DNA of 20,000 nucleotides from an uncultured virus (IMG/VR IMGVR_UViG_3300028805_000097) (lineage: Duplodnaviria; Heunggongvirae; Uroviricota; Caudoviricetes), in IMG/VR virus record IMGVR_UViG_3300028805_000097, positions 56,970 to 76,969 of that record; one strand, written 5' to 3'. Below are positions 7,365 to 19,971 of this stretch, piece by piece. The notes under the pieces were generated by a model that had not been told where the DNA came from, made no database searches, and saw only the letters and a list, made by a program, of their open reading frames with translations. The position numbers and the translations under genes are program-made. Numbering within the stretch: the first letter of the stretch is position 1; each line of letters starts with the position of its first letter.

Positions 7365-7396
7365 AATGTTATGCTTTTATAGTTTATATATAATAT

Positions 7397-7956: not shown

Positions 7957-7986
7957 ATCTAAATGTTTTATTAATTGTTTGATGGG

Positions 7987-8019
7987 GCAAAGTTACGGAA
8001 AATATCTGAATTAACCAAA
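7987..8019 (-). promoter_or_regulatory. Bacteroidota sigma-A promoter
   Basis: TTTG...TAACTTTGC. Confidence 0.85.
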
Positions 8020-8034
8020 CCTTGCCCCAATCTT

Positions 8035-8700
8035 TTACCATTCTTTAACAAATTTCACATTTACTGACGTGTCCTTAACGCCTACCTTGCGCAAATAGTC
8101 CTCCAGTACTTTTTTAAGTCCATCTACAAGACCTTCTGGGTTATCAATACGTTTGTGCATCGTAGATGTATAGACTTCAAACTTCTCTCGGAATTGATAG
8201 GTTCTGGCTATGTAATCTTCCAGTGCCTCATAGTGTTCATCTGCAAGTTCCCCTGCCTCGTAGTGGAAGTTTGCATCATCAAGCCTATCTTCCAACAGGA
8301 TTTTCATACGTTTGTCAGCCTTCTTATGCTCCTTTAGAATCTGCATAAGTGACTTGTAACCATACGCCCACTTGCATTTGTGGTTAGGTTTGTACACATA
8401 CTTTTCTCGCTCGGCTTCGGTGAAATAAATCTCCTTGCCAGAAATCATGTTGTCGATGCACTCCTTTAGCTCGTCCTTTGTCTTTTTCGTCACGCCATAA
8501 GCCTGTGAAGGTCTGGTTTCCTCACCCTCCTTGCAGAACTCGTAATAGACCTCTCTCTTAGTCTCGTACTGCCTGCTCATTTCGTAACGCTTATTGAAGT
8601 TATTCCACCAATGGTGAACTGCCAACACTCTAATGATTGCAAAGCCCTTGTAGCTCTCGGACTTGCTTCTGCTCTTTGTTATTCCATCTAATTTACTCAT
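8035..8700 (-). CDS. hypothetical protein (221 aa)
   Basis: Long ORF with A-rich leader. Confidence 0.85.
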   Translation of the reverse strand: MSKLDGITKSRSKSESYKGFAIIRVLAVHHWWNNFNKRYEMSRQYETKREVYYEFCKEGEETRPSQAYGVTKKTKDELKECIDNMISGKEIYFTEAEREKYVYKPNHKCKWAYGYKSLMQILKEHKKADKRMKILLEDRLDDANFHYEAGELADEHYEALEDYIARTYQFREKFEVYTSTMHKRIDNPEGLVDGLKKVLEDYLRKVGVKDTSVNVKFVKEW

Positions 8701-8722
8701 AGTTGTAAAATTGTTAAGTTGT

Positions 8723-9031
8723 TTAATATACTATTACCTCTCCTAATGTCTGGTGAAAAGCACCTATACTATCTTCCAGAGTATAGATGTCAGCACCTTT
8801 TGCTAACCCATCCTGCAATGCTTGTGCGTAATCTTCGTTACCTTCACTAAAAGCATCCGAAATCCAGACGTCCACCATTTCTGGGTCTGGTTCTTCCAGA
8901 GAATAATTGCCGAACGAATCAGAATCAGTTTCCAACATCTTTAATACAATGTCATTCTGGTCTTTTGTAATCCCCAGAGTAACCACCTTTGTGCCATCAG
9001 TAAGCACGTTTTCAAAATTTTGTAATTCCAT
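8723..9031 (-). CDS. acidic hypothetical protein (102 aa)
   Basis: First ORF after promoter 9060-9092. Confidence 0.8.
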   Translation of the reverse strand: MELQNFENVLTDGTKVVTLGITKDQNDIVLKMLETDSDSFGNYSLEEPDPEMVDVWISDAFSEGNEDYAQALQDGLAKGADIYTLEDSIGAFHQTLGEVIVY

Positions 9032-9059
9032 AATACTTAATATTTAATTGTTTGACACG

Positions 9060-9092
9060 GCAAAGTTACACAAAAAAATCGAGAAAACCAAA
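9060..9092 (-). promoter_or_regulatory. Bacteroidota sigma-A promoter
   Basis: TTTG...TAACTTTGC. Confidence 0.85.
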
Positions 9093-9141
9093 GGTCTCCT
9101 CGACTTTTTAACAATTTTTATAATTATGGATACTTACAGCC

Positions 9142-9891
9142 TTACCATCCATACACCTTTGCCACGTAGGGGCGTAGGCTTCTGGTTGCCTTTCTAAACT
9201 GCTCTTCTGTCATACCCTTGTAGGCAATGGCATTAATAAGGTTTTCAGCCTGCTCACGGCTCTTTGCAACCCTGTAAAGGTAGTAGTTAGTGCCGTCGTG
9301 ATGCGAAGCCCTACAGCGGACGTTATGCTGGTCACAATACCAATCCAGATATTCACAATCAGAACGCAGAATTTGTTTAACGTTAGTGCCGATAATACCA
9401 CCACCATTATGTCTGCCATCCCAGAGTCCAAGGTCAACGAAAGCCACGATACAGCCATCTACTTCAATATCCAGATTAGCCCTTTCGTCATCAAGACACA
9501 GGTCACAATCTTCGTGATAACGTTCGTAGTCAATAGTGATACCTTCTTCTTCCCTTGTTTCCTCGTCTGGATAGTCGATAAGCATACATGCTTCCCACTC
9601 GTCGTAGTTGTCGTTAGTCCAGATAACCCTGTGATTGACGTCGATATAACCATCAGACGTAACAGGGCGAGCGCACATCATTTTAAAATGCCGACGTACA
9701 TCATTCTCTGTACCATTATCGAAGTTAACAGCCTCAACCTTAACGAGTCTGTGCCTGTTTGGTGAAGTTGTGACATCCCACTTATCTTCATACATAACAC
9801 CACGCAGCCAAATGCCTGCCTTACCTTCGTGCTGGTAAACCTTCAATAGTTTGTTAGCCAGACGATACCTTGCAATTAACTTATTTCCCAT
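9142..9891 (-). CDS. hypothetical protein (249 aa; LGLWDGR...HHDGTNYYLYR)
   Basis: Long ORF; motifs recall an uncharacterised gut-phage family (from memory, unverified). Confidence 0.85.
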   Translation of the reverse strand: MGNKLIARYRLANKLLKVYQHEGKAGIWLRGVMYEDKWDVTTSPNRHRLVKVEAVNFDNGTENDVRRHFKMMCARPVTSDGYIDVNHRVIWTNDNYDEWEACMLIDYPDEETREEEGITIDYERYHEDCDLCLDDERANLDIEVDGCIVAFVDLGLWDGRHNGGGIIGTNVKQILRSDCEYLDWYCDQHNVRCRASHHDGTNYYLYRVAKSREQAENLINAIAYKGMTEEQFRKATRSLRPYVAKVYGW

Positions 9892-9912
9892 AATCTTATA
9901 ATTGTTAGTTGT

Positions 9913-10143
9913 TTATAATAAGACCTTATCGGTCAGTGAATTTGTCATATCCCAGAGATTACCCATAGTGACGTGCTTCTCTCCAAGTAAGCGGTTATCA
10001 CTGCTATACTTATATATATGCACGCTAATAGTCCACTGGTCAAGCCCATTCCTAAGAATAGCCGTAACGTCTCTCCATTGCTTCAACCCATTCTTATACT
10101 CTGGGTCAGCATTTTTCTTTTCAATGATTAAACTATATTCCAT
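9913..10143 (-). CDS. hypothetical protein (76 aa)
   Basis: First ORF after promoter 10167-10199. Confidence 0.8.
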   Translation of the reverse strand: MEYSLIIEKKNADPEYKNGLKQWRDVTAILRNGLDQWTISVHIYKYSSDNRLLGEKHVTMGNLWDMTNSLTDKVLL

Positions 10144-10166
10144 AACTTTATTGTTTTATTGACGCT

Positions 10167-10199
10167 GCAAAGTTACACATTTTCCATGTAATAACCAAA
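10167..10199 (-). promoter_or_regulatory. Bacteroidota sigma-A promoter
   Basis: TTTG...TAACTTTGC. Confidence 0.85.
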
Positions 10200-10223
10200 T
10201 CCTTTAATATTTTTTAAGAAAAT

Positions 10224-10258
10224 AAAAGGGCTGCAACCTGCCTAGCAAGCCACAGCCC
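10224..10258 (-). terminator. intrinsic terminator
   Basis: GGGCTGTGGCTTGC/GCAGGTTGCAGCCC then TTTT. Confidence 0.8.
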
Positions 10259-10295
10259 AGCGTCAACAACTAAATATTAGATATGGAAAGAAGCG

Positions 10296-10763
10296 TTATA
10301 TCAAATCCAGATGCTCATAGTAGACCTCGTAGTCGAGCCAGTTCCCACAAACACCCATAGTCAAGCTATCAATCATAGTGTTGAAGTCAGCCAGAACCTC
10401 AGCATCTTCATCGTCTTCTTCTGCCAGTGCTAACCGCTCTGCCAGAATCTCGTATAGCTCTTTGCGAAGGTCATCAGTTCCAAACTGCTGGTCACGAACG
10501 ATGCAGACTGTCTGTTTATCGCCCTCTTCGTCCTCGAAGCACAGGACTGCCATCTTTGGGTAAATATCCCAGATATGGTCTGGATTGAGTTTAGAAGGGT
10601 CTTTAACTTCCGTAACCACTGCCGATGCTACTTCCTTCTTTGAAACGAGCATGTTTGTCTCTTTAGCCATCTTAACGATATTCTCGTTACTGGTCGGCTC
10701 ACATCTAACATACTGGGTCTTCTTACCCTTGTTAGTCTTAATTTCGTAAACTTTCTTTTCCAT
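10296..10763 (-). CDS. hypothetical protein (155 aa, acidic C-terminal half)
   Basis: Own promoter and terminator. Confidence 0.85.
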   Translation of the reverse strand: MEKKVYEIKTNKGKKTQYVRCEPTSNENIVKMAKETNMLVSKKEVASAVVTEVKDPSKLNPDHIWDIYPKMAVLCFEDEEGDKQTVCIVRDQQFGTDDLRKELYEILAERLALAEEDDEDAEVLADFNTMIDSLTMGVCGNWLDYEVYYEHLDLI

Positions 10764-10844
10764 AATCTTTTAAATTAAATTGTTTGTTAATATTTGAAAG
10801 GGAGCGAGGACTCGAACCTTCTTTCTCCCTTGTTGTTTGGTGGT

Positions 10845-10878
10845 GCAAAGTTACACAAAACCCAGGAAATAACCAAAT
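10845..10878 (-). promoter_or_regulatory. Bacteroidota sigma-A promoter
   Basis: TTTG...TAACTTTGC. Confidence 0.85.
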
Positions 10879-10891
10879 TCCTTAACGTTTT

Positions 10892-11266
10892 TTAAGAATA
10901 TCGCTCCACAATGTCACGGAACTTAAGCGGATAGTTCCCCAGATTTACCTTTATGGCAGCTACCATCTTATCGAACTTGCTTTCCACGAACTTGGATAAA
11001 ATGTCCTCAACACTCTCCTTGAAGTCGAAATGCTTAAATTCGATAATGGCATTACGCTTGCCTTGTGAGTCTCTGATAGCCTCGGAAAAACGCTTGTAAC
11101 TCTTAGGGTCGTTCAAGTCAAATTCACTACCGAACTTGCCCAGAAGGATAATTTCAACAATGCGTGCTACACCACAATTCTCGCCAAGATAGGCACGGCA
11201 CATCTGGAAGTTCAGCAGGAAGTCTGCACTCCGCTTGTAGCCTTCGTAAATCTTAGTATTCTTCAT
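10892..11266 (-). CDS. hypothetical protein (124 aa)
   Basis: ORF in operon. Confidence 0.8.
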   Translation of the reverse strand: MKNTKIYEGYKRSADFLLNFQMCRAYLGENCGVARIVEIILLGKFGSEFDLNDPKSYKRFSEAIRDSQGKRNAIIEFKHFDFKESVEDILSKFVESKFDKMVAAIKVNLGNYPLKFRDIVERYS

Positions 11267-11284
11267 ATATCTAATGTTATTTAA

Positions 11285-11506
11285 TTAATCTACTTCAAAG
11301 TTGTTTTTATCAAACTCCTTATAGTCGAATATGCAAGCAAACATTTCACTTGAATTAGCCCAGCAATATTCGTTTAGTTCATCATTGGTAAGACCATTTT
11401 CCTTAGCAATCTCACCCAACCTTTTATCAATGATTTCAATTTTCTCTGGAGTGTAGCAACTCTCCAAACCATCAATTAATTGTCTCCTTACTTCTTTAAT
11501 ATCCAT
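11285..11506 (-). CDS. acidic hypothetical protein (73 aa)
   Basis: ORF in operon. Confidence 0.8.
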   Translation of the reverse strand: MDIKEVRRQLIDGLESCYTPEKIEIIDKRLGEIAKENGLTNDELNEYCWANSSEMFACIFDYKEFDKNNFEVD

Positions 11507-11530
11507 AATACTATTATTTAATTATACTTA

Positions 11531-11656
11531 CTAATGGTCTATCTGCGAATTATATCCACTACGATAGATACCCTGTGCTCTCTCACATGCATACTGCTCA
11601 TCTAACCACTTTTCTTGTGGGCTTTCATAAGCATGGTTTCCAAATTGACTACTCAT
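11531..11656 (-). CDS. small hypothetical protein (41 aa, MSSQFGNHAYESPQEKW...)
   Basis: Not in ORF track; first ORF after promoter 11696; ends TAG TAA; leader duplicated in the next gene. Confidence 0.65.
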   Translation of the reverse strand: MSSQFGNHAYESPQEKWLDEQYACERAQGIYRSGYNSQIDH

Positions 11657-11695
11657 ATTACTTTATTATTTAATTATACTTATTGTTTATCGTTG

Positions 11696-11728
11696 GCAAA
11701 GTTACAGAAAATTTTCGAAATAACCAAA
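11696..11728 (-). promoter_or_regulatory. Bacteroidota sigma-A promoter
   Basis: TTTG...TAACTTTGC. Confidence 0.85.
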
Positions 11729-11740
11729 TTTTTTCCTAAT

Positions 11741-11780
11741 AAAAAAAGTGCATTGAACACTCCCCAATGTCCAACGCACT
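11741..11780 (-). terminator. intrinsic terminator
   Basis: AGTGCGTTGGACATT/AGTGTTCAATGCACT then T6. Confidence 0.85.
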
Positions 11781-11793
11781 GATTTTAAAAGGT

Positions 11794-12240
11794 TTACTCC
11801 TTAGAATCGTTTTCAATACGCTCCTTCATCTTATAGAACATATTGGCATATTTCTTAGCCTCGTCGAGTTGTATCTGGAGTTTGGGCAGTCTCACTTCTG
11901 CCTCCCACCAAAGGTAATACTTAACGTCATCCAGAACCTTCTGCAAGTCCTTTGTAAACATATCGTCAAGCGCAACCTTCTTAACAAAGCTACCTGTCAT
12001 CCTGTTATAAACGATAGGGAACTTCTGGATAGATGTGCCATATTCCTCAGCATTTTCGTCATACTTATAGACCGCAAAGCATGATACAAATAAATATTTC
12101 TTAGTGATAGAACTATAAGGTCTTTCCTGCCCTACACAATGGCAAGCGTGACCTGCCTTGTTCAAATAATCTTCGGAGAACGTGAAGGTCTTACCTCCTA
12201 CGATGTTGCGAATCTCCTTTAAAATCTCTTCTCTTTCCAT
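11794..12240 (-). CDS. hypothetical protein (148 aa)
   Basis: ORF followed by a terminator. Confidence 0.85.
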   Translation of the reverse strand: MEREEILKEIRNIVGGKTFTFSEDYLNKAGHACHCVGQERPYSSITKKYLFVSCFAVYKYDENAEEYGTSIQKFPIVYNRMTGSFVKKVALDDMFTKDLQKVLDDVKYYLWWEAEVRLPKLQIQLDEAKKYANMFYKMKERIENDSKE

Positions 12241-12252
12241 AATGATATTGTT

Positions 12253-12546
12253 TTACTTAAATAAAAACTCTATTGTCACTTGCTCTGTGAAAGCCTTGAA
12301 ATACTTACACATCACTCTCTTATGCCAAGGGGTCAGCACGCAGCATTGAGATAGATTAAATACGGCAACATCGTGACGTAAATCACTCACCTGCCCCATA
12401 AACATTGTAAGAGCCTTAAACTCCGCTTCATTGAGACACATAGTAACCACAATAGGCTCGCCATAGTGTCCACCAATGCAACTTCCATCATCGAACTCCT
12501 TGTAGAAGCCGTTCCTGTCCGTAATTCTTACTTTATACCTTTTCAT
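12253..12546 (-). CDS. hypothetical protein (97 aa)
   Basis: First ORF after promoter 12571-12603. Confidence 0.8.
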   Translation of the reverse strand: MKRYKVRITDRNGFYKEFDDGSCIGGHYGEPIVVTMCLNEAEFKALTMFMGQVSDLRHDVAVFNLSQCCVLTPWHKRVMCKYFKAFTEQVTIEFLFK

Positions 12547-12570
12547 ATCTTTATTGTTTAAATTGACATG

Positions 12571-12603
12571 GCAAAGTTACACAAAAAAATCGGGAAAACC
12601 AAA
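12571..12603 (-). promoter_or_regulatory. Bacteroidota sigma-A promoter
   Basis: TTTG...TAACTTTGC. Confidence 0.85.
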
Positions 12604-12631
12604 TGTTCACCCGATTTCTTAACATTATTTA

Positions 12632-13267
12632 TTAAATAGCAGGAATGAAATACCCATCAATTTCTTTCATGCCCTTGATGGCATTCTTGGAGTTGGTAAC
12701 TCCGATGCGGTCGTAAGCCCATGAACCGATACGCTTATCCTTCTGCCAGTCGTAGTTGTCTCTTTTTACAACGTAGTCACCACCACCTTCACCATTACCA
12801 TCGCAGCACAGGATTGGAAGGGGATGCGTTCGCCATTCTTTTTTGTTATACTTTTTAATCTTTACGTATTCCTTCTTGGTGAAGTTGATAGCGTAGGCAT
12901 AGTAGGGTGCATCGTCGCCATATTCACGAGCGAATGCCAGAGCGAAGTCTTTAGCCTTCTTACTCTCCGCAATCTCTCGTGCCATAGGATAGAGATTGCA
13001 AGTTCCCTCATCATTTTCATCGGCTGGATAAGCCTTTGTTACCTTTGGGTCTGCATAGTCACCAAGCCACACAAAGGGTTTTCCGTAGTATTCGTTTGCC
13101 AACAGCCAGCAGGCAGCAGCAACAAATTTATTACCGCACCATGAATGTTCAGTGAGTTTCTGACCGCAAAATGCTCCATAATCATAAGAGCGAATCGAAT
13201 AAGCAACTGGCTTCTTTACTCTCTTCCAGTTCTCCTTTAAAAAGGTTGGTTTATAATATTGTCCCAT
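12632..13267 (-). CDS. conserved phage hypothetical protein (MGQYY...KLTEHSW...WLGDYAD...HPLP...GNGEGGGDY...GSWA)
   Basis: Own promoter; motif pattern recalls a widespread uncharacterised phage family (from memory, unverified). Confidence 0.85.
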   Translation of the reverse strand: MGQYYKPTFLKENWKRVKKPVAYSIRSYDYGAFCGQKLTEHSWCGNKFVAAACWLLANEYYGKPFVWLGDYADPKVTKAYPADENDEGTCNLYPMAREIAESKKAKDFALAFAREYGDDAPYYAYAINFTKKEYVKIKKYNKKEWRTHPLPILCCDGNGEGGGDYVVKRDNYDWQKDKRIGSWAYDRIGVTNSKNAIKGMKEIDGYFIPAI

Positions 13268-13298
13268 AATTGAAAAAAATTAAGTTGTTTAACATGGT

Positions 13299-13331
13299 GC
13301 AAAGTTACACAAAAAAATTGAGAAAACCATA
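13299..13331 (-). promoter_or_regulatory. Bacteroidota sigma-A promoter
   Basis: TATG...TAACTTTGC. Confidence 0.8.
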
Positions 13332-13360
13332 AGTTCTCTCAATCTTTTAACATTTTTTAG

Positions 13361-13450
13361 TACGTCGGGCGGGGGTCGAACCCGCAAGACGCTTTTGACG
13401 GCATCTGTCAGATTTTAAGTCTGATGTGTACACCATTCCACCACCGACGC
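13361..13450 (-). tRNA. tRNA-Leu (anticodon UAA)
   Basis: Acceptor GCGTCGG/CCGACGT, D-loop GGAATGGT, anticodon arm TCAGA-CT TAA AA-TCTGA, long variable arm, T arm GCGGG-TTCGACC-CCCGC, discriminator A; CCA not encoded. Confidence 0.93.
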
Positions 13451-13451
13451 A

Positions 13452-13467
13452 TGTTTCACGTGAAACA
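13452..13467. promoter_or_regulatory. parS: parS centromere-like site
   Basis: Second perfect TGTTTCACGTGAAACA. Confidence 0.85.
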
Positions 13468-13469
13468 AT

Positions 13470-13507
13470 AAAAAACCATCCATTGTCTTCACAGATTCTG
13501 GATGGTT
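13470..13507 (-). terminator. intrinsic terminator, GTGA tetraloop
   Basis: AACCATCCA...TCT-GTGA-AGA...TGGATGGTT then TTTT. Confidence 0.8.
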
Positions 13508-13532
13508 ACTTTTTATGACAAATAAATATTAC

Positions 13533-13799
13533 TTATTTCGCCTCAAATTTCTTAAAGACGTGATGCAATCCGTTCTGGGTTTTACCCCACGTCACAATAC
13601 CATCCAGTTCTCCGTTACTGAATGCTAAGCATAATCGGTCATGTGTCTCGTCGATATGCTCCATCTTTATTGCTTCTGGCTTCTCTGTGAAAACCTCGTA
13701 GTCTGCAATCCTCTCTGTTATAATGTCGCAGGCTTTATCCTTGTTGATAAAGGTGCAGTTTTCAAAAGCCTTGTTTATTGCGTTAACTCTCTGTGCCAT
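13533..13799 (-). CDS. hypothetical protein (88 aa)
   Basis: Own promoter and terminator. Confidence 0.8.
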   Translation of the reverse strand: MAQRVNAINKAFENCTFINKDKACDIITERIADYEVFTEKPEAIKMEHIDETHDRLCLAFSNGELDGIVTWGKTQNGLHHVFKKFEAK

Positions 13800-13835
13800 A
13801 GTTGTAATATAAATATTGCTTATTGCTATTTTTGT

Positions 13836-13868
13836 GCAAAGATATAAATTTTTTTCCAGAAAAACAAG
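13836..13868 (-). promoter_or_regulatory. Bacteroidota sigma-A promoter
   Basis: CTTG...TATCTTTGC. Confidence 0.8.
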
Positions 13869-13871
13869 TTT

Positions 13872-14012
13872 TTAACGATTTTTTTTCGCTTTCTGCCATC
13901 CCTTTAGCTTATGTCGCTTTCTGGGGTGAAACTCCGCATCTGTAGTTGTGATAATGCAAGGGAGAAAAACGTCCCTGTAGCTGTAGCTGAATGATAAACT
14001 AAATATTCTCAT
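13872..14012 (-). CDS. small basic hypothetical protein (46 aa, MRIFSLSF...KGWQKAKKNR)
   Basis: Not in ORF track; A-rich leader, fills the gap. Confidence 0.5.
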   Translation of the reverse strand: MRIFSLSFSYSYRDVFLPCIITTTDAEFHPRKRHKLKGWQKAKKNR

Positions 14013-14124
14013 AACTCTTATTCTTTAACGTTCTTAAGTTTCTTTTTAAATTCTGGGGAAGTCACCACATCGGCAACCATGACCCCCAGAGATAATAGTA
14101 GAAATAATCCAAATCCCATAGCAT

Positions 14125-14592
14125 TCAATTTTCAAAGAAATCCATCTGCCAGACCTTATCCGTGAAATAACGGCTGTAGAAGTCTTGATATTCCTTTACC
14201 CTGTCAACATACAGCAGGACGTATGGAATGAGCGTATCGAGGCTGTTAAGCAGGAAATTCCCTATGTTATCCACTGGCATCATGCCCTCGTCAGCCTTGC
14301 CGTTGAACATAAACAATCCATCTGGGTAACGGAAGGGAGTGTTAACCACGAAAGCGATAGCCTTTGCTGACATCATGCCTTTTTGTACAAGGTACGCCAA
14401 ATCTTCTGTCTTGTTGATGTTAAAGATGTAGTCAGTGCCACCACGTTCGTCCTCTCGCATTCTGTTGTAAGCATCCAGAACAATCTGGAGACCATTACCT
14501 TTGCGGAAGTCATCTTTCACTTGTTTCTTGATGAACTCTGTGATAAACTCCAGAGCGTCACTCATTTTCATGTTTGTTGTTGTCTTATCCAT
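14125..14592 (-). CDS. hypothetical protein (155 aa)
   Basis: First ORF after promoter 14624-14656. Confidence 0.85.
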   Translation of the reverse strand: MDKTTTNMKMSDALEFITEFIKKQVKDDFRKGNGLQIVLDAYNRMREDERGGTDYIFNINKTEDLAYLVQKGMMSAKAIAFVVNTPFRYPDGLFMFNGKADEGMMPVDNIGNFLLNSLDTLIPYVLLYVDRVKEYQDFYSRYFTDKVWQMDFFEN

Positions 14593-14623
14593 AACTGATT
14601 AATATTAAGTTGTAAAATATGGT

Positions 14624-14656
14624 GCAAAGTTACACAAAAAATCTGGAATAACAAAG
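14624..14656 (-). promoter_or_regulatory. Bacteroidota sigma-A promoter
   Basis: TTTG...TAACTTTGC. Confidence 0.85.
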
Positions 14657-14671
14657 AAATTGCCTTGTTTT

Positions 14672-14956
14672 TTAATTATTATTCACAATTCTATTATACC
14701 ACTGACTATATTCTTCATCACATTGCGATTTCAGAATATTATAGTTCTCCGTAGTATCTGGATAAAAGTCATTTAAGTCATTCATGCGTAAACGAATCTT
14801 AATCCCCTCACTTTCAATGATAACCTTATCTTCTGCTTCATTTACAGAGAGAATAACGCTCTGTGTAACTACATGATGACACTGCATATCCAGACCAAGT
14901 GATAACACCTTGCAAGGAAGCAAACATTTGACACCTTTGATTACTATTGTTTCCAT
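14672..14956 (-). CDS. hypothetical protein (94 aa, METIVIKG...)
   Basis: Start moved to the ATG 4 nt after the upstream TAG. Confidence 0.8.
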   Translation of the reverse strand: METIVIKGVKCLLPCKVLSLGLDMQCHHVVTQSVILSVNEAEDKVIIESEGIKIRLRMNDLNDFYPDTTENYNILKSQCDEEYSQWYNRIVNNN

Positions 14957-14960
14957 AATT

Positions 14961-15260
14961 CTATTTATAAGTTTCCCAATTCCAGACATCCCAAGGGAAT
15001 GTGTTTAATGCCCACAGGATTTCCTTTTGTATATCCTCTGGTAGTTCAGATACCTCCCAACAAGGGTCATACTCTCCGTTCTCATCCTCGTCATTTGAAT
15101 CGTAGGCAATCAACCCAGAATTAGTAATCTCAACTGCATTTACAATTCTTGGGTATTCATCACCATCTTCATCGAACTCTGATGTGATTTCGACATTGTG
15201 ACCGAATCCCATTCTGGTCATTCCTTTGCTCTCTAATAGAGCGATAATCTCTTTTTCCAT
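14961..15260 (-). CDS. acidic hypothetical protein (99 aa)
   Basis: First ORF after promoter 15288-15320. Confidence 0.8.
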   Translation of the reverse strand: MEKEIIALLESKGMTRMGFGHNVEITSEFDEDGDEYPRIVNAVEITNSGLIAYDSNDEDENGEYDPCWEVSELPEDIQKEILWALNTFPWDVWNWETYK

Positions 15261-15287
15261 AATTCTATTGTTTAATTGTTTGACGTG

Positions 15288-15320
15288 GCAAAGTTACCAA
15301 AAAAGATTGGAATATCCAAG
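15288..15320 (-). promoter_or_regulatory. Bacteroidota sigma-A promoter
   Basis: CTTG...TAACTTTGC. Confidence 0.8.
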
Positions 15321-15345
15321 AGATACCCCAACCTTTTAACGTTTT

Positions 15346-15567
15346 TTAAATCAAATCCTTGAACTCTACTTCGATTGGGTCTGGGTCACCCTCTGGGTAA
15401 TACTGGGTGTCAGTAATCCAATCCCATGAGTAGTCACCTTCGAAGGCGTAGTTGTCATTGATGTACGCATGTTCGTCACCACCATACTTTTCTTCCAGCT
15501 CCTGTTCGTTAACGTCCTCAATAAGCAGTTCGTGGTCGTGGTGGTCAATAATAGCAATCCTTTTCAT
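15346..15567 (-). CDS. very acidic hypothetical protein (73 aa)
   Basis: ATG 4 nt after the upstream stop. Confidence 0.8.
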   Translation of the reverse strand: MKRIAIIDHHDHELLIEDVNEQELEEKYGGDEHAYINDNYAFEGDYSWDWITDTQYYPEGDPDPIEVEFKDLI

Positions 15568-15571
15568 AATC

Positions 15572-15997
15572 TTATAGTTCCATTAGTGTCCATTTAATCC
15601 CTTTACTTTTCTTGGTGTAGTGCTCGTCTGGCTCTGTACCATCCTCATAGTCACCAGTGTTAATCCACATATCCAGAGAGATAAGTTGTCCACAAGCATC
15701 TACCGTAATCTCGTACACATGACCCTTGTAGGCAAACGTTGCTGAAAACTCTGTGTCCTCGTCAGCCTTGTTTTGAAGTTCTCCTGTGTAGAAATACTTA
15801 CTAAAGGTAAACGTTGTTTCCTCTTTCGCATCCTTGTCTTTAATGGCGACGATTAATCCATTCTTGGGGTTTACGAGGTTATTGTATTCCTCGTTTGTAA
15901 TCGTCTGGGTGTACACATCTTTCACCTCATAGTGTCCGTAGAAGCTGTTGTCATAGACCTTTCTGGTGGTCTCTACCTTTAAAAATCCTATTACCAT
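15572..15997 (-). CDS. hypothetical protein (141 aa, MVIGFLK...)
   Basis: Start moved downstream of promoter 16024-16056. Confidence 0.85.
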   Translation of the reverse strand: MVIGFLKVETTRKVYDNSFYGHYEVKDVYTQTITNEEYNNLVNPKNGLIVAIKDKDAKEETTFTFSKYFYTGELQNKADEDTEFSATFAYKGHVYEITVDACGQLISLDMWINTGDYEDGTEPDEHYTKKSKGIKWTLMEL

Positions 15998-16023
15998 AAT
16001 CCTATTGTTTAATTGTTGATGGT

Positions 16024-16056
16024 GCAAAGTTACACATATTCCAGAATATAACCAAA
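16024..16056 (-). promoter_or_regulatory. Bacteroidota sigma-A promoter
   Basis: TTTG...TAACTTTGC. Confidence 0.85.
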
Positions 16057-16075
16057 TTCCTTAACGTTTTTTAAG

Positions 16076-16113
16076 AAAACAATGTGGGGACACCCCATCT
16101 GGAGCATCCCCAC
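16076..16113 (-). terminator. intrinsic terminator
   Basis: GTGGGGATGCTCC/GGGGTGTCCCCAC then ATTGTTTT. Confidence 0.7.
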
Positions 16114-16165
16114 CTCAACCTAACAATTCATTATGGAAAACAACAGCGTTTCACAACGCAAAGAG

Positions 16166-16302
16166 GGGGGTCTGCTGGATTCAAACCAGCCATCGGAGCG
16201 TCAACTTAGGTACTGGATGGGAACAGTCTATTTAACCCATAAACCTATATTACCATGCAATATAATCCTAAGCGTCTCTTACCAACTCTAAGCGGAGACC
16301 CC
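16166..16302 (-). ncRNA. tRNA-like RNA with an enlarged, branched anticodon domain
   Basis: Acceptor GGGGTCT/AGACCCC, D-like loop AGTTGGTA, T arm GCTGG-TTTGAAT-CCAGC; anticodon arm replaced by a roughly 80-nt branched region. Confidence 0.65.
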
Positions 16303-16689
16303 ACGTTAGAAATGGTCACCTTATAGCTACTATAATTATCGATGTAGTGACTTCGGGCAACCAAACCACTCAAAAAGAAAGGTTATATGTATAGTGAGCG
16401 GTAAAGTCAGATACGTACCATGCCCCATCAGCCTATGTTGAGTTGTCCCGTGAAAAGCCTGTAAACGTCTTAGTTATGCGGCTCTCTGGTGGCACGTATA
16501 CGAATAAATTTCTTATAAACTATAATAAAATCAGTGTAAAATATTATCCCTTAATAGGGTCGGTCTCTCTGTCTCATTATTCTCTAAGTTTTATATTTCG
16601 GCATTAAAATACATAATAAATAATAATTCTTATATCCCTTAATTGGGCGGGGGTCTTTCACTATTATTCATTTCTCTACATTTTAATTG

Positions 16690-16911
16690 TTAATGAATCT
16701 GGGAAGATGGGGGAGGCTTCGGAGGCGGCTCTGGCTGCTTATTGCGCCATGCGGCTCTGCGCCTTGCCCCTGTTCCCTTTTTTGGTCAACGCATTGGACG
16801 AACTTTATACAGCTGGGTCTTAGTTCCGTCCTCGTTCTCTCTGACCTTGCTTGGCATAGCTACCACCCGAATGTTGCGAGTGAGCTTATCCAGTCTCTTT
16901 TGTCCACTCAT
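16690..16911 (-). pseudogene. basic Pro-rich ORF interrupted by an in-frame TGA (41 aa, or 73 aa if read through)
   Basis: MSGQKRL...KVRPMR-TGA(16786-88)-PKKGTGARRRAAWRNKQPEPPPKPPPSSQIH-TAA. Confidence 0.5.
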
Positions 16912-16990
16912 AAGTGCTAAAGTTTTAGTAAAGTAATTTTCTCATAAGCCCTCATAAGTTTTAAATTGTTCTACTTATTGTTATTGCGGT

Positions 16991-17023
16991 GCAAAGATAC
17001 AGATTTTTTTCGTAAAAACCAAA
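16991..17023 (-). promoter_or_regulatory. Bacteroidota sigma-A promoter (micro-ORF/ncRNA unit)
   Basis: TTTG...TATCTTTGC. Confidence 0.85.
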
Positions 17024-17047
17024 TTCTGGTTTACTTTTTTATCTTAT

Positions 17048-17266
17048 TTAACAATATGCACCTTGATAGTCCAGAAATTCCTGCGTCTCCAGAGTTGTCT
17101 TAATTTCATCGTCGAGCTGGTCATCGTCTATCTCGTCGTTCTCGTCTCGGAAGTGGTCGAGTGTAAGACCTTCAAGCCCACAAACGTAGTCTCCGTGTTC
17201 GTCGTAGATGTCAATACCACCTAAACGCTCCTTAGCTTCGTAGCCGCTTTCAGTTGTATGTACCAT
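17048..17266 (-). CDS. very acidic hypothetical protein (72 aa)
   Basis: ORF with A-rich leader. Confidence 0.8.
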   Translation of the reverse strand: MVHTTESGYEAKERLGGIDIYDEHGDYVCGLEGLTLDHFRDENDEIDDDQLDDEIKTTLETQEFLDYQGAYC

Positions 17267-17370
17267 ATCTCTATTCTTTTAAAGTAGGCTGGGTGGCAGG
17301 ACAATCTGCCGCTTATGGCGTTGTACGCACTGCTCCGCTGTCCTATAACGCACCCAAGCCTGTGTTGTTA

Positions 17371-17721
17371 TTACTTATCTAAATTCTCATAGATGAATGC
17401 AGCCACGTCGTACACTTCATCCCAATTGATATTCTGGATGGGATATTCGCTGCAATCCTCTGTCTGGAGTTTGATTTCTCCATGCTTGTCGAGGTGTACA
17501 CCTTCTACCATTGAGTAAGCATTACTGGCATACTCTGGATGGTTGCCACCATCGTAGGTCACTGTCACCATTTCTTCACACTCTGTAAAGTCAGCACTTC
17601 CACCATTCGCTTCCAAGAACCGCTTGATGTAGGTCTCGCATTTACTACCAATCTCCTTTTGTTTGGAGATAATGCTGTCGTAGATTTCGTCAGCTTTCTT
17701 AAAATACGTTTGTCTTTTCAT
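17371..17721 (-). CDS. hypothetical protein (116 aa)
   Basis: First ORF after promoter 17747-17779. Confidence 0.85.
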   Translation of the reverse strand: MKRQTYFKKADEIYDSIISKQKEIGSKCETYIKRFLEANGGSADFTECEEMVTVTYDGGNHPEYASNAYSMVEGVHLDKHGEIKLQTEDCSEYPIQNINWDEVYDVAAFIYENLDK

Positions 17722-17746
17722 AATGTCTTATTGTTTGATTGATGGT

Positions 17747-17779
17747 GCAAAGTTACAGAAAATCTGGGAAATAACCAAA
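17747..17779 (-). promoter_or_regulatory. Bacteroidota sigma-A promoter
   Basis: TTTG...TAACTTTGC. Confidence 0.85.
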
Positions 17780-17830
17780 TGTTTCTTGAATTATTTTTGT
17801 TATACGTATAACTTTTTCTGGTTTCTTTAC

Positions 17831-17867
17831 AAAACACTATTGGGGACGTAGCCAATCCTACGCCCCC
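17831..17867 (-). terminator. probable terminator hairpin
   Basis: GGGGGCGTAG/CTACGTCCCC with a weak U tract. Confidence 0.6.
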
Positions 17868-17909
17868 TCATCTAACAATAACAATAAAACAATAAAAAAC
17901 TATGAAAAA

Positions 17910-18080
17910 CTAATCCTGCCTCAAAATCTGGCTTTCACGCTCTCCACAAATGGTAAACTCCTTAATGTCAGCCTCTTCTGCCATGTTACGTGCATTATCC
18001 AGTGCTTCACCCTCGTCGTTACCTGTTGCTTCCACAATGATGGAAGCATTGTAGTTTAATTGAATAGTATATTTACGCAT
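17910..18080 (-). CDS. small hypothetical protein (56 aa, MRKYTIQLNYNASIIVEATGNDEGEAL...)
   Basis: Not in ORF track; A-rich leader, protein-like composition. Confidence 0.75.
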   Translation of the reverse strand: MRKYTIQLNYNASIIVEATGNDEGEALDNARNMAEEADIKEFTICGERESQILRQD

Positions 18081-18118
18081 GATGTTTAATGTTTAATGTT
18101 TCCATAATAAAGTGAATA

Positions 18119-18445
18119 CTATGCCGCTTCCTTTGGCTTAACCTCTACGCCATCCTTATACAGCGTATTGAACGCTATTAGGACGTGCAGGACACTAATC
18201 TCGTCGGCACACTCAATCCCTCCTACTGACTCGATAATGGCATCAGCCATTTCTTTGCTGTCCTTTATCGCTTTCATCTGGGGATAAAACATATCAAACC
18301 TGTGACCCCTGTAGTTTTCACAAATGGCATGACCATCGTAAATGTCAAACTCGATAGGCTTCTTAAAACCCTCGATATTCAGTTTCTCCGTACAAACCTT
18401 CTTGCCGTAGAACTTTTCCCAAATTTTGTTTTCTTCTCTCTCCAT
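18119..18445 (-). CDS. hypothetical protein (108 aa)
   Basis: First ORF after promoter 18472-18504. Confidence 0.8.
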   Translation of the reverse strand: MEREENKIWEKFYGKKVCTEKLNIEGFKKPIEFDIYDGHAICENYRGHRFDMFYPQMKAIKDSKEMADAIIESVGGIECADEISVLHVLIAFNTLYKDGVEVKPKEAA

Positions 18446-18471
18446 CGTTTATTAATGTTTTATTCGATGGT

Positions 18472-18504
18472 GCAAAGATATATAAAAAAATTCAGAATCC
18501 AAAA
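18472..18504 (-). promoter_or_regulatory. Bacteroidota sigma-A promoter
   Basis: TTTG...TATCTTTGC. Confidence 0.85.
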
Positions 18505-18567
18505 TGAATCGGACTCTGAATTTCTTAAAAAAATTTAATTTAACAACTTATAATTATGGAAACATTA

Positions 18568-18957
18568 TCACCAATCATATTCTAAAGCCTCATATACTGC
18601 GTTATAGACACTTTCAATACCATTCATGGGTATGATGTGAGAGTAATCGGTTGCGTCGTAGGCTTGATAAGCATCACCGATGTCACCATTCTCATTTTGC
18701 TCTGCCAGTTCTTCCGTGTCGATGTCAAGGATAACGTCAAGGACTATTTTATCATCTTCCAGATAAACCTTGCTGACCTCCATAGAGATAATGTCATCTT
18801 CGTCATAGCCCATAACCTGTGCGTGCTGGCAGTTGCTACCTAACAGGTCAACCTCGTCAACCTTGTGGGCTACCATAAGGGCTTTAATCTCCGCTACAAC
18901 CTGCTCGTGAAAACCTTTAATCTGGTTGCCAAACTCTGTAAAATCTTTTCTTTCCAT
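18568..18957 (-). CDS. acidic hypothetical protein (129 aa)
   Basis: Own promoter 18984-19016. Confidence 0.85.
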   Translation of the reverse strand: MERKDFTEFGNQIKGFHEQVVAEIKALMVAHKVDEVDLLGSNCQHAQVMGYDEDDIISMEVSKVYLEDDKIVLDVILDIDTEELAEQNENGDIGDAYQAYDATDYSHIIPMNGIESVYNAVYEALEYDW

Positions 18958-18983
18958 AATGTTTTATTATTTAAATTGATGCT

Positions 18984-19016
18984 GCAAAGTTACAGAAAAA
19001 TTTCCAAATAACCAAA
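18984..19016 (-). promoter_or_regulatory. Bacteroidota sigma-A promoter
   Basis: TTTG...TAACTTTGC. Confidence 0.85.
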
Positions 19017-19048
19017 CGTTTTATGATTTTTTTTGTGGAAAGGGTGCA

Positions 19049-19903
19049 TTAAAACACCCAATCCACATCTGGGTTATTAACCATGACTACGAAATCACTA
19101 TTTGGTAAGCGGTACTTACGAATACCATCCTTCGGGTCAATGTAATAGTTACTGGCAGTCGTATGGTAGTGCAAGCCAACAATATGCTTTGCAGGGTCAA
19201 GGTAACGCATATCGTATTCGTTACCATCACAAATAGGATAGCCCCAAAAACTCTTAGGTAACTTGCCACCAAAGAACACTACAGCCACCTTGCCGCCCTG
19301 CTCCAAGAAATTCTTGCATTCGTCTGCATTATGTCCGTCGTAGGACAAAGTAAGGTCGTAGTTATGGTATTTCTCCATCAGCTTGATACGGCTCGGAACT
19401 TTCGTATAGTCGTAGAACTGAACATTTGGAAACAATTCCAAGATGTTAAGACCAGTGTCGGGGTCTTTAAATAACTCTGGAGAAAGGTCACTTGTGCCAT
19501 TCAAACGAACACTGAAACCCATCTGCAATCTCTTAGCACGCTCCATCTTAGCCCTAATCTCATGTATCAGTAAGCGCATGAATAAATCCCTATCACTATA
19601 GAATAACTTAGTCTTTTTGATACGGCTGCGGTTAACGAACGAATCAAGAACGTTGCCGCCATTATCCACTTGCTGCAATTGTGCTGCCTTGTTGTGTCCG
19701 CTGCCGTTAAGACAAAACTCATGGCAGTACTGACCGCCTGGGCATACTTGATGTCCGCTCATATTCCAAGGGGCAAGGTAGAGACAATATGTCAGCGTAC
19801 CATTCTCATAAGATTTGTGCATCTTAGCACTCTGATTTGCGTTACCCAAGTAAGAGATACCTAAGTTCGCCTTTTCCTTTGTGTAAATAAATCCTTTATC
19901 CAT
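19049..19903 (-). CDS. GP88-like phage protein, putative Fe-S/radical-SAM-like fold (284 aa, MDKGFIY...)
   Basis: LYLAP...C-x5-C-x3-C, RLNGTSD, FYDYTK, YDLTLS, DMRYLD motifs; family assignment from memory; start moved downstream of promoter. Confidence 0.6.
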   Translation of the reverse strand: MDKGFIYTKEKANLGISYLGNANQSAKMHKSYENGTLTYCLYLAPWNMSGHQVCPGGQYCHEFCLNGSGHNKAAQLQQVDNGGNVLDSFVNRSRIKKTKLFYSDRDLFMRLLIHEIRAKMERAKRLQMGFSVRLNGTSDLSPELFKDPDTGLNILELFPNVQFYDYTKVPSRIKLMEKYHNYDLTLSYDGHNADECKNFLEQGGKVAVVFFGGKLPKSFWGYPICDGNEYDMRYLDPAKHIVGLHYHTTASNYYIDPKDGIRKYRLPNSDFVVMVNNPDVDWVF

Positions 19904-19938
19904 AATTAAAAAAATTAAGTTGTTGTTTAAATCTGGGT

Positions 19939-19971
19939 GCAAAGTTACAGAAAAAAATCGAATCTACCAAA
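19939..19971 (-). promoter_or_regulatory. Bacteroidota sigma-A promoter
   Basis: TTTG...TAACTTTGC. Confidence 0.85.

What the first reader, a model, noticed from the sequence alone, without database searches (positions are those of the whole stretch)
16166..16302. tRNA-like RNA whose anticodon arm is replaced by a branched domain
Seen: perfect 7-bp acceptor (GGGGTCT/AGACCCC), D-like loop (CTT-AGAGTTGGT-AAG) and 5-bp T arm with a TTTGAAT loop. In place of an anticodon loop, a stem (CTTAGG/CCTAAG) encloses two hairpins, TATATTGC/GTAATATA and ATGGG/CCCAT. At 137 nt it is too short for tmRNA or a self-splicing intron. It is followed by a GUGA hairpin, an anti-start tract and a terminator. Inference: an undescribed tRNA mimic (decoy for tRNA-targeting defence) or a processing scaffold that releases the downstream sRNA.
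Basis: partly seen in the sequence, partly recalled or inferred. Interest (0 to 1): 0.72.

Follow-up and report, generated by a model that had tools for sequence, protein, structure and literature searches.

The report
Phage tRNA-shaped RNA carrying a cargo domain
A rumen phage makes an RNA with the ends and corner of a transfer RNA but a conserved 68-base folded insert where the decoding loop should be, one of a family of non-decoding tRNA look-alikes of unknown job that sit in front of a conserved small RNA.

Summary
On the minus strand (16302→16166) there is a 7-bp acceptor stem, a T arm and a 68-nt insert closed by a 6-bp stem. No tRNA, tmRNA or Rfam tool calls it.

The evidence that it is real comes from relatives:
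- In all 6 diverged viral loci the same slot holds a gene that Rfam scores as tRNA (41-60 bits). The slot lies just before a conserved hairpin, an invariant tract and a terminator.
- Across 19 distinct slot variants the acceptor and T stems covary. The anticodon arm is replaced, shrunk to 3-6-nt loops, expanded or deleted. At most 1 of 19 looks able to decode.
- A diverged copy (L014, 84 of 137 bases identical) keeps the insert. The closing stem has 4 of 6 pairs changed on both sides.

Best reading (about 0.5): a tRNA-derived, non-decoding scaffold RNA. The tRNA body would recruit tRNA end-processing enzymes and give stability, the insert would be a selected cargo, and 3' cleavage would free the downstream small RNA.

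The closest known things are T4 RNA C (139 nt, function unknown) and engineered tRNA scaffolds. The decoy idea stays open, because the phage carries Thg1, RlaP and RNA ligase genes. I rate it a new variant of a known kind, with moderate to high interest.

The parts
16166..16302 (-). tRNA-shaped, non-decoding RNA (137 nt including discriminator C16166)
   Evidence: homologue L014 1614-1750; same slot as tRNA-scoring genes in relatives
16296..16302 (-). acceptor stem, 5' strand GGGGTCT
   Evidence: 7 of 7 pairs in window and L014, with 1 double and 1 single change; each acceptor position shows 3-7 pair types among 19 slot variants
16167..16173 (-). acceptor stem, 3' strand AGACCCC; the strain variant at 16169 turns G3-C70 into G3.U70
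16174..16190 (-). T arm GCTGG / TTTGAAT / CCAGC
   Evidence: 5 of 5 pairs kept in L014 with 1 double change; G53-C61 in 19 of 19 variants; loop TTCGAAT or TTCGAGT in 15 of 19
16274..16295 (-). D-arm-like region (CC GCTT AGAGTTGGT AAGA...), recognisably derived from the GCTCAGTTGGTAGAGC of relatives; pairing uncertain
16205..16272 (-). 68-nt cargo domain in place of the anticodon stem-loop, closed by CTTAGG/CCTAAG
   Evidence: closing stem 6 of 6 Watson-Crick in both copies, 4 double changes; 151 of 200,000 shuffles; conserved loop sequences TATGGGTYAAATA....GTTCCC and AGTAC
16246..16264 (-). inner hairpin 1 (8 bp in the window)
   Evidence: 5 of 8 columns still pair in L014, 1 double change
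16217..16240 (-). inner hairpin 2 (GGG/CCC core with a 14-nt loop of conserved sequence)
   Evidence: 3 of 5 pairs kept, all invariant
16191..16204 (-). long variable-region linker; may pair with the D-loop region (4 bp: 1 double and 2 single changes)
16146..16159 (-). trailer hairpin GCGTT GTGA AACGC with a U-rich tail
   Evidence: 2 of 5 pairs with double changes among 12 sequences
16114..16145 (-). nearly invariant tract (TTTTCCATAATGA..TTGTTAGGTTGAGG), complementary to phage gene-start regions
16074..16113 (-). strong terminator hairpin and U tract
16303..16785 (-). 483-nt non-coding leader between the small ORF and the element; length 205-790 nt in relatives
16786..16911 (-). conserved 41-aa basic ORF heading the same transcription unit
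   Evidence: present in 7 of 7 loci examined; no Pfam or Atlas match
16992..16999 (-). -7 box TATCTTTG of the nearest upstream Bacteroidota-type promoter
   Evidence: 24 such promoters on this strand in the window; none between 16999 and the element

Best explanation
The element is a tRNA-derived RNA that no longer decodes.

Proposed mechanism:
- The tRNA body (acceptor stem, T arm, remnant of the D arm) is kept as a chassis that the host's general tRNA enzymes recognise. These are RNase P at the 5' end, RNase Z or exonucleases plus the CCA-adding enzyme at the 3' end, and T-loop modifiers.
- That recognition would excise the RNA precisely from a transcript of about 0.9 kb that starts at the promoter near 16999, and would make it stable.
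- The former anticodon stem has become the closing stem of a 68-nt folded cargo domain. Its sequence and closing stem are under selection. It presumably binds a protein or RNA that is not yet known.
- Cutting at the 3' end of the tRNA body would at the same time set free the conserved downstream RNA: hairpin, invariant tract complementary to phage gene starts, terminator.

Shown: the structure, its descent from a tRNA slot, its conservation, its presence in RNA libraries.
Inferred: the processing, the stability, cargo binding, and release and action of the trailer RNA.
For: (1) Slot homology. In 6 of 6 diverged viral loci the element directly 5' of the conserved trailer scores as tRNA in Rfam (41.2-60 bits, cut-off 29). 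ARAGORN of 6, and 6 of 6 with the intron option.

(2) Non-decoding family.
- 19 distinct slot variants keep the acceptor and T stems through many pair types; G53-C61 is present in 19 of 19.
- The anticodon-arm analogue folds with 3-6-nt loops, is a 32-nt or 68-nt domain, or is missing. Only L006 can be read with U33 and a purine at 37.
- L005 and L008 are near identical in scaffold and flanks but have unrelated arms. L042 and L044 share one arm in different scaffolds.
- Two further variants (L036/L037, L038) were found with the model.

(3) Selection on this version.
- L014 is 84 of 137 identical with no indel in total length. Double changes keep the acceptor, T and closing stems.
- In a DNA contig of another sample the element has 2 substitutions in 137 nt. 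The 246-nt leader beside it has at least 17 substitutions and 7 indels.
- All 3 strain variants inside the element fall in loops or give G.U.

(4) Transcript context.
- There is no promoter between 16999 and the element.
- An RNA-library contig covers 16163-16370.
- The trailer is conserved, with covarying hairpins, in 12 of 12 aligned sequences.
- 1 of 19 variants encodes CCA. From established knowledge of RNase Z, that enzyme cuts CCA-less precursors right after the discriminator.

(5) Precedent. Engineered tRNA scaffolds with an insert in the anticodon stem are processed and stable in E. coli (PMC3753655, passages read). Plant mitochondrial t-elements act as RNase P/Z signals (PMC1920247, abstract read).
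Against: - No end mapping. The RNA runs are contigs, so they give no 5' or 3' ends and no evidence on CCA. RNA-contig ends at 16298, 16320 and 16163 are only weak hints.
- A pure cutting signal would need only the minihelix, as in L013 (49 nt). Processing therefore does not explain why a 68-nt cargo is conserved, and the cargo's partner is unknown.
- The insert structure rests on only two distinct sequences. Alternative helices, possibly a pseudoknot, fit equally well.
- The T loop here is TTTGAAT, so C56 is replaced by U. Positions 8-9 are CC rather than UA. Recognition by tRNA enzymes is therefore not assured.
- The element fails the Rfam tRNA model even at E<=10.
Confidence: 0.5

Rival explanations
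1. Decoy, sponge or partner in the conflict over tRNAs. The RNA offers a tRNA body without a cleavable anticodon loop. It could soak up or inhibit a host tRNA-targeting nuclease or tRNA-modifying toxin, or it could work together with the phage's own RNA-repair enzymes. The swapping of arms would then reflect an arms race.
For: - The same contig encodes Thg1 (8.5e-31), an adjacent RlaP nucleotidyltransferase (8.1e-22), an RNA ligase (1.1e-19) and two phosphoesterases. Jumbo-phage comparative work reads these as an answer to host attacks on tRNA (PMC7824862, passages read).
- The element lies among early genes with host-type promoters.
- Arms and whole scaffolds turn over fast between close relatives, for example L013 versus the window and L005 versus L008.
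Against: - Anticodon nucleases recognise specific anticodon loops, and none of the arms resembles one.
- Acceptor sequences differ freely among variants, which argues against a sequence-specific acceptor binder.
- No decoy of this kind turned up in my literature searches.
- No defence or anti-defence gene is linked to the slot.
Confidence: 0.2
2. Decaying tRNA gene. It would be a phage tRNA no longer needed, accumulating an insertion and point changes, with no function of its own.
For: - The D arm is degraded, U replaces C56, and no anticodon loop is left.
- The closest relative by flanking protein (L013, 93% identity) has only a 49-nt remnant.
Against: - Compensatory changes keep three stems across a divergence at which the leader is no longer alignable.
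- The total length is identical (136 nt acceptor to acceptor) in both copies.
- The element changes several times more slowly than its leader between strains.
- All variants keep a paired acceptor and T arm.
Confidence: 0.08
3. A working tRNA with an intron or an unusually long anticodon arm, spliced or used as it is.
For: The insert sits where tRNA introns sit, and relatives in the slot score as tRNA.
Against: - ARAGORN with introns of 0-300 nt does not call it.
- Removing the insert leaves no 5-bp stem and 7-nt loop (read from the sequence).
- The insert is far too short for a group I intron, and Rfam finds none.
- Relatives without an insert also lack usable anticodon loops.
Confidence: 0.04
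4. A miniature tmRNA-like or Y-RNA-like (YrlA-type) tRNA mimic that works with SmpB or Ro.
For: - RNAalifold pairs the D-loop region with the stretch just 5' of the T arm, as helix P2 does in the tRNA-like domain of tmRNA.
- A strain variant has G3.U70.
- The cargo may form a pseudoknot.
Against: - There is no tmRNA call from ARAGORN and no tmRNA or Y-RNA hit in Rfam at E<=10.
- G3-C70 is found in both the window and L014.
- There is no tag reading frame.
- No Ro, SmpB or similar gene was seen among 101 ORFs scanned. Only about a quarter of the genome is in hand.
Confidence: 0.04
5. The conserved DNA serves a 52-aa gene on the plus strand (16133-16291). Its start, ATTATGG, would be what the 'anti-start tract' really is.
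For: The ORF exists, and its start context looks like that of the phage's genes.
Against: - In 14 slot variants the antisense frame is 11-66 aa long and shares only the first 2-3 residues.
- All neighbouring genes, promoters and terminators are on the minus strand.
Confidence: 0.01

Closest known systems
Bacteriophage T4 RNA C (species 1 RNA, rnaC; 139 nt)
   Same: - Similar size (139 versus 137 nt).
- Encoded by a T4-type phage. This contig has a T4-like portal, terminase and prohead protease.
- In my fold of the annotated T4 gene, the 5' and 3' ends pair next to a canonical T arm (CCGGG / TTCGAAT / CCCGG) and extra hairpins fill the middle.
- Not in Rfam.
- Function unknown (PMC3014915 and PMC9697503, passages read).
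   Different: - No detectable homology. The model built from the window and L014 scores T4 rnaC at 11.4 bits, E = 1.3.
- The T4 acceptor-like stem has mismatches, and its inner hairpins are arranged differently.
- T4 RNA C lies at the end of a tRNA cluster. This element follows a small ORF and a long leader.
Engineered 'tRNA scaffold' for recombinant RNA (Ponchon and Dardel; PMC3753655)
   Same: Same design: acceptor stem, T arm and D arm are kept, and the anticodon stem-loop is turned into an insertion site that holds a structured RNA. The chimera is processed and protected like a tRNA in E. coli (passages read).
   Different: That is a laboratory construct. Here the design is natural, the D arm is degraded, and processing is not shown.
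tRNA genes of related phages in the same slot (Rfam RF00005)
   Same: Same genomic slot, the same trailer, and a recognisably related D-loop and T-arm sequence.
   Different: - The window element fails the tRNA model and ARAGORN.
- The relatives themselves have non-canonical anticodon arms.
t-elements of plant mitochondria and tRNA punctuation
   Same: They are tRNA-like structures used as RNase P / RNase Z cutting signals at mRNA ends (PMC1920247, abstract read). This is the mechanism I propose for excision and trailer release.
   Different: - They are organellar.
- They carry no conserved cargo.
- Their cleavage is shown experimentally; here it is only inferred.
tRNA-like domain of tmRNA; YrlA (Y-RNA-like) tRNA mimics
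   Same: Both are non-decoding RNAs that keep the acceptor/T-arm elbow and replace the anticodon arm by another domain. The YrlA features are recalled, not from a call. PMC7824862 mentions the Ro partner RNA.
   Different: - No model hit.
- No conserved G3.U70.
- No tag frame.
- As I recall it, YrlA has its ends in the Ro-binding stem, not in the acceptor.

Membership tests
tRNA (Rfam RF00005) | 7-bp acceptor stem stacked on a 5-bp T stem with a 7-nt T loop | tested here: met
   The loop is TTTGAAT, with U in place of C56.
tRNA (Rfam RF00005) | 5-bp anticodon stem with a 7-nt loop (U33, purine 37) | tested here: not met
   A 68-nt domain stands in its place. No canonical arm is left if the insert is removed.
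tRNA (Rfam RF00005) | D arm of 3-4 bp with G18 G19 | tested here: inconclusive
   The 3-bp CTT/AAG stem with GG in the loop is present in the window. It is kept in L014 only with a 2-nt shift. An alternative long-range helix is predicted.
tRNA (Rfam RF00005) | Score at or above the family's gathering cut-off (29 bits), or a call by ARAGORN | tested here: not met
   No hit even at E<=10 on 171 or 801 bases. ARAGORN gives no call with or without introns. L014 also gives no hit.
tRNA (Rfam RF00005) | CCA end and aminoacylation | not testable with these tools
   CCA is not encoded. The RNA runs are contigs only.
Intron-bearing tRNA | A canonical tRNA remains after removing the insert; the intron is of group I type or has a bulge-helix-bulge | tested here: not met
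   and reading
tmRNA | G3.U70, a tag reading frame, pseudoknots; a call by ARAGORN or Rfam | tested here: not met
   G3-C70 in the window and L014; G.U only in a strain variant. No call.
Y RNA / YrlA | Rfam model match, and a Ro (TROVE) protein encoded nearby | tested here: inconclusive
   No model match. No TROVE domain among 101 ORFs scanned, but the contig is estimated at 26% of the genome.
T4 RNA C-type tRNA-like stable RNA | About 140 nt, paired ends next to a canonical T arm, extra hairpins in between, T4-type phage | tested here: met
T4 RNA C-type tRNA-like stable RNA | Sequence or structure homology to T4 rnaC | tested here: not met
   11.4 bits, E = 1.3 with model R1
tRNA-like processing signal (t-element type) | Cleavage by RNase P and/or RNase Z at its borders | not testable with these tools
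   Only contig ends near the borders: 16163, 16298 and 16320.

The most novel reading that the evidence does not exclude
T4-like phages of rumen Bacteroidota use the tRNA body as a natural chassis with an exchangeable cargo slot. The anticodon arm is swapped between phages as a cassette: unrelated arms occur in identical scaffolds, and the same arm occurs in different scaffolds. In the window lineage the arm has grown into a 68-nt aptamer-like domain that binds a host or phage factor, for instance a defence or RNA-repair protein. The tRNA body would give precise excision, CCA addition and long life. This would be the natural counterpart of the engineered tRNA scaffold and would suggest a job for the long-unexplained T4 RNA C class.
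Probability: 0.25. Interest if true: 0.8.

Novelty: new variant of a known kind. Interest (0 to 1): 0.6.

Why it matters
Phage tRNA genes are usually read as codon-usage or anti-defence supplies. Here a whole slot family keeps the tRNA shape but has given up decoding, so automated tRNA counts in phage genomes include RNAs that do something else.

The window's version shows that the anticodon stem can carry a selected, folded domain in nature, which is the trick used in the laboratory to stabilise recombinant RNAs.

T4 RNA C, an RNA of similar build, has had no known function for some fifty years. A diverse, comparable family with a conserved partner RNA gives a way to approach that question. 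Candidate experiments are end mapping, RNase P and RNase Z assays, pull-down with the cargo, and deletion of the cargo.

The coupled downstream RNA, whose invariant tract is complementary to gene starts, may be a phage-encoded translational regulator in Bacteroidota. As far as I recall, that phylum has no Hfq-type small-RNA system.

Tried and rejected
Family and protein look-ups:
- Rfam at gathering thresholds on the window, and at E<=10 on four sub-ranges, gave only chance microRNA, xrRNA or snoRNA hits.
- PHROGs and Pfam named none of the immediate neighbouring genes. The ESM Atlas had nothing for the 41-aa ORF.

Homologue searches that gave little:
- blastn against the phage collection found no match.
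- Exact or degenerate DNA patterns of the element in viral contigs found only the near-identical contig.
- Single-protein locus searches found only that contig or nothing.
- Genome contigs: the trailer pattern gave 0 hits. The cargo pattern gave 1 hit in an Ekhidna MAG with no tRNA context, which I read as chance.
- Model R1 over 39 sources (202,576 bases) found no further members of the insert-bearing type.

Statistical tests that did not discriminate:
- Free energy alone: z = -1.26.
- A permissive shuffle test for any 6-bp helix between wide zones was uninformative (1385 of 5000). I replaced it with the test at homologous columns.

Structure:
- The MFE folds of the window and L014 disagree inside the cargo, so I do not offer one inner structure.

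RNA runs:
- All are contigs.
- 15972-16151 has no cover in the three RNA runs.
- RNA contigs end at 16298, 16320 and 16163.
- None of this shows or excludes processing or termination.

Readings rejected: the antisense 52-aa ORF, tmRNA, Y RNA and intron-bearing tRNA (see the rival explanations).

Literature searches for phage tRNA-like decoys or non-canonical phage tRNAs turned up no description of such a family. These searches cover open-access papers and preprints only.

Full report
WHAT IS THERE

The window is bases 56970-76969 of a 76,969-base IMG/VR viral contig that CheckV puts at 26% complete. All plausible genes lie on the minus strand. Twenty-four of them or their transcription units are preceded by a Bacteroidota-type promoter, TTTG-N19-TA(A/T/C)CTTTGC.

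The finding reads on the minus strand, 16302 -> 16166. Its parts are:
- acceptor GGGGTCT/AGACCCC, discriminator C, no encoded CCA;
- a D-arm-like stretch;
- a 6-bp stem CTTAGG/CCTAAG enclosing 56 nt with two hairpins;
- a 14-nt linker;
- T arm GCTGG-TTTGAAT-CCAGC.

Behind it come a GTGA hairpin with a U tail, a tract containing CCATAAT, and a 13-bp terminator.

WHAT THE STANDARD TOOLS SAY

- ARAGORN finds only tRNA-Leu(UAA) at 13360-13450. It does not call the element even when introns of 0-300 nt are allowed.
- Rfam finds nothing at gathering thresholds or at E<=10 on short ranges.
- The free energy is unremarkable: z = -1.26.
- A strict acceptor-plus-T-arm scan of the whole contig gives two sites, this one and tRNA-Leu. 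Shuffles give a mean of 0.4, and 32 of 100 give at least one.

The shape alone could therefore be chance.

RELATIVES SETTLE IT

The downstream 141-aa protein has homologues at about 55% identity. An alignment of them retrieved 6 diverged viral loci and 30 metagenome loci. A trailer DNA pattern added three more viral contigs.

In all 6 viral loci, the element directly 5' of the conserved trailer is scored as tRNA by Rfam at 41.2-60 bits. ARAGORN labels them Gln, Leu, Lys, Ser and Arg, plus 'Pro' with an intron.

I tabulated 19 distinct slot variants:
- Each acceptor position shows 3-7 pair types.
- T-stem pair G53-C61 is present in 19 of 19.
- The T loop is TTCGAAT or TTCGAGT in 15 of 19.
- A canonical D arm is present in 13 variants.

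The anticodon arm is never ordinary. Constrained folds give loops of 3-6 nt on lengthened stems. ARAGORN's forced readings have C33, A33 or U37. Only L006 could pass as a decoder. Other variants have a 32-nt arm (L005), one short hairpin only (L013, 49 nt in all), or unrelated inner domains (L016, L027, L045).

Pairs with near-identical scaffold and flanks carry unrelated arms (L005/L008; L010/L035). L042 and L044 share one arm in different scaffolds and flanks. Two further variants in a more distant clade (L036/L037, L038) turned up with a covariance model.

The slot therefore holds a tRNA-derived RNA that keeps the generic tRNA body but not the decoding function. The real tRNA-Leu of the same phages is canonical throughout.

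THE WINDOW'S VERSION IS CONSERVED

L014, whose neighbouring protein is 56% identical, has a copy of exactly the same length: 136 nt acceptor to acceptor, 84 of 137 bases identical without gaps.

| Helix | Pairs kept in L014 | Changes |
|---|---|---|
| Acceptor | 7 of 7 | 1 double, 1 single |
| T stem | 5 of 5 | 1 double |
| Closing stem of the insert | 6 of 6 Watson-Crick | 4 double; 5' strand shifted by one base |
| Hairpin 1 | 5 of 8 | 1 double among the pairs kept |
| Hairpin 2 | 3 of 5 | invariant GGG/CCC only |

For the closing stem, only 151 of 200,000 shuffles give 6 Watson-Crick pairs at the homologous columns +-1.

Loop sequences TATGGGTYAAATA....GTTCCC and AGTAC are conserved.

RNAalifold adds two small helices with compensatory changes. 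One joins the D-loop region to the linker. The other would form a pseudoknot with the closing stem. Two sequences cannot decide between these models.

Strain data agree with selection. A DNA contig from another sample has 2 substitutions in the 137-nt element, against at least 17 substitutions and 7 indels in the 246-nt leader. The three variants seen in the element are a G-C -> G.U change and two loop or linker changes.

The upstream leader of L014 is not alignable to the window. The closest relative by flanking protein (L013, 93%) carries a different, 49-nt mini version. The slot therefore evolves by replacement as well as by point change.

CONTEXT

The unit starts at the promoter near 16999. 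It then encodes a conserved 41-aa basic protein, present in 7 of 7 loci and with no family match. A leader of variable length (205-790 nt) follows, then the tRNA-like RNA, then the trailer.

Among 12 aligned trailers, 35 columns are invariant, chiefly TTTCCATAATG...TTGTTAGGTTGA. The hairpin before this tract and the terminator after it covary: 7 of 20 predicted pairs show double changes.

The tract is complementary to the ATTATGG-type start regions of the phage's genes. 8 of 105 start regions reach the 1% quantile of random windows in duplex energy. The plus-strand ORF that this complementarity creates is not conserved: 11-66 aa in 14 variants.

An RNA-library contig covers 16163-16370, that is, the whole element. 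Others cover the leader and stop at 16298 and 16320. Because these are contigs, this shows presence in RNA libraries and no more.

The rest of the contig shows a T4-type phage: Portal_T4 at 5.5e-87, plus terminase and prohead protease. It also carries Thg1, RlaP, an RNA ligase, two phosphoesterases, a ClpB-like ATPase and a sigma factor.

MECHANISM

What every variant keeps is what the general tRNA enzymes read: the acceptor/T-arm minihelix and, mostly, the D loop. This follows from established knowledge of RNase P, RNase Z and the CCA-adding enzyme.

I therefore propose that the tRNA body serves for precise excision and stabilisation. I further propose that 3' cleavage sets free the trailer RNA; 18 of 19 variants lack an encoded CCA, which is the RNase Z substrate type. 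Finally, I propose that the arm is a cargo position, grown here to a selected 68-nt domain with an unknown partner.

The engineered tRNA scaffold works in just this way (PMC3753655, passages read). Plant mitochondrial t-elements are natural cutting signals of this type (PMC1920247, abstract read).

None of the processing steps is shown here. The decoy reading remains a serious rival because of the repair genes (PMC7824862, passages read; PMC12776372, abstract read) and the fast turnover of the slot.

COMPARISON AND NOVELTY

The nearest natural object is T4 RNA C. It is 139 nt long, with paired ends next to a canonical T arm and hairpins in between (z = -4.57). It is absent from Rfam, and it is described as of unknown role in PMC3014915 and PMC9697503 (passages read). 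Homology is not detectable: 11.4 bits, E = 1.3.

The element fails the tests for tRNA, intron-bearing tRNA and tmRNA; the test for Y RNA is inconclusive (see the membership table).

Earlier notes of this scan describe like objects in other phage genomes. They are leads, not support. I had already fetched and folded T4 RNA C before I read them.

I rate the element a new variant of a known kind, with interest 0.6.

Noticed in passing
window 16074-16165 (minus strand): Candidate small RNA directly behind the tRNA-like element: a covarying hairpin, a tract of about 30 nt invariant in 12 of 12 relatives and complementary to ATTATGG-type gene starts, and a covarying terminator. 8 of 105 start regions on the contig reach the 1% quantile of random duplex energies. 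The best are at window 14592, 3967 and 13267.
   Followed up: partly
window 16786-16911 (minus strand): Conserved 41-aa, Lys/Arg-rich ORF heading the same unit in 7 of 7 loci examined. No Pfam or Atlas match. It could be an RNA-binding partner of the RNAs behind it.
   Followed up: partly
window 16548-16559 and 16637-16648: Two copies of a short palindrome (CCCTTAATAGGG and CCCTTAATTGGG) inside a motif, on the minus strand GAcCCCCGCCC-N6-GGGATATA, that recurs in the leaders of relatives. The 87 nt between them is missing in other strains, in both a DNA and an RNA run. Read depth peaks here in all four runs. It may be a promoter for the phage's own sigma factor or a protein-binding site.
   Followed up: partly
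window 10798-10831 (minus strand): A 34-nt minihelix with a T-loop (AAGGGAG ... AGG TTCGAGT CCT ... CTCCCTT) in the 5' untranslated region, right after the promoter at 10853 and before the gene starting at 10763. It resembles the acceptor and T arm of slot variants L016 and L027.
   Followed up: no
window 1864-2746 (minus strand): About 880 nt without a convincing ORF, downstream of a consensus promoter at 2644, with G+C-rich repeated words (CACGAGCAC...). ARAGORN's intron mode makes a spurious 'tRNA-Thr' here. It may be another non-coding RNA.
   Followed up: no
window, minus strand, 24 sites from 72 to 19947: A very uniform promoter, TTTG-N19-TA(A/T/C)CTTTGC, followed by a shared leader (..CAAACAATTAAACAAT..ATTATGG), in front of almost every small gene. 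The region is an array of single-gene early units.
   Followed up: partly
contig outside the window: G000:C1 31585-33622 and 45369-46025: Adjacent Thg1-like (8.5e-31) and RlaP (8.1e-22) genes, and an RNA ligase (1.1e-19). Together they form a tRNA/RNA repair kit in a T4-type phage of Bacteroidota. A sigma-70 family gene ends at the window's first bases (56257-56979).
   Followed up: partly
window 16169: In an RNA run and a DNA run from other samples, C70 of the acceptor is U, giving G3.U70, the pair that marks alanine tRNAs and tmRNA. It is absent from the window and from L014.
   Followed up: no
L005 2722-2809 versus L008 2737-2809; L042 versus L044: Cassette-like behaviour of the anticodon arm. 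Unrelated arms sit in near-identical scaffolds and flanks, and an identical arm (5 bp with a GATA loop) sits in scaffolds with different acceptor and T stems.
   Followed up: partly
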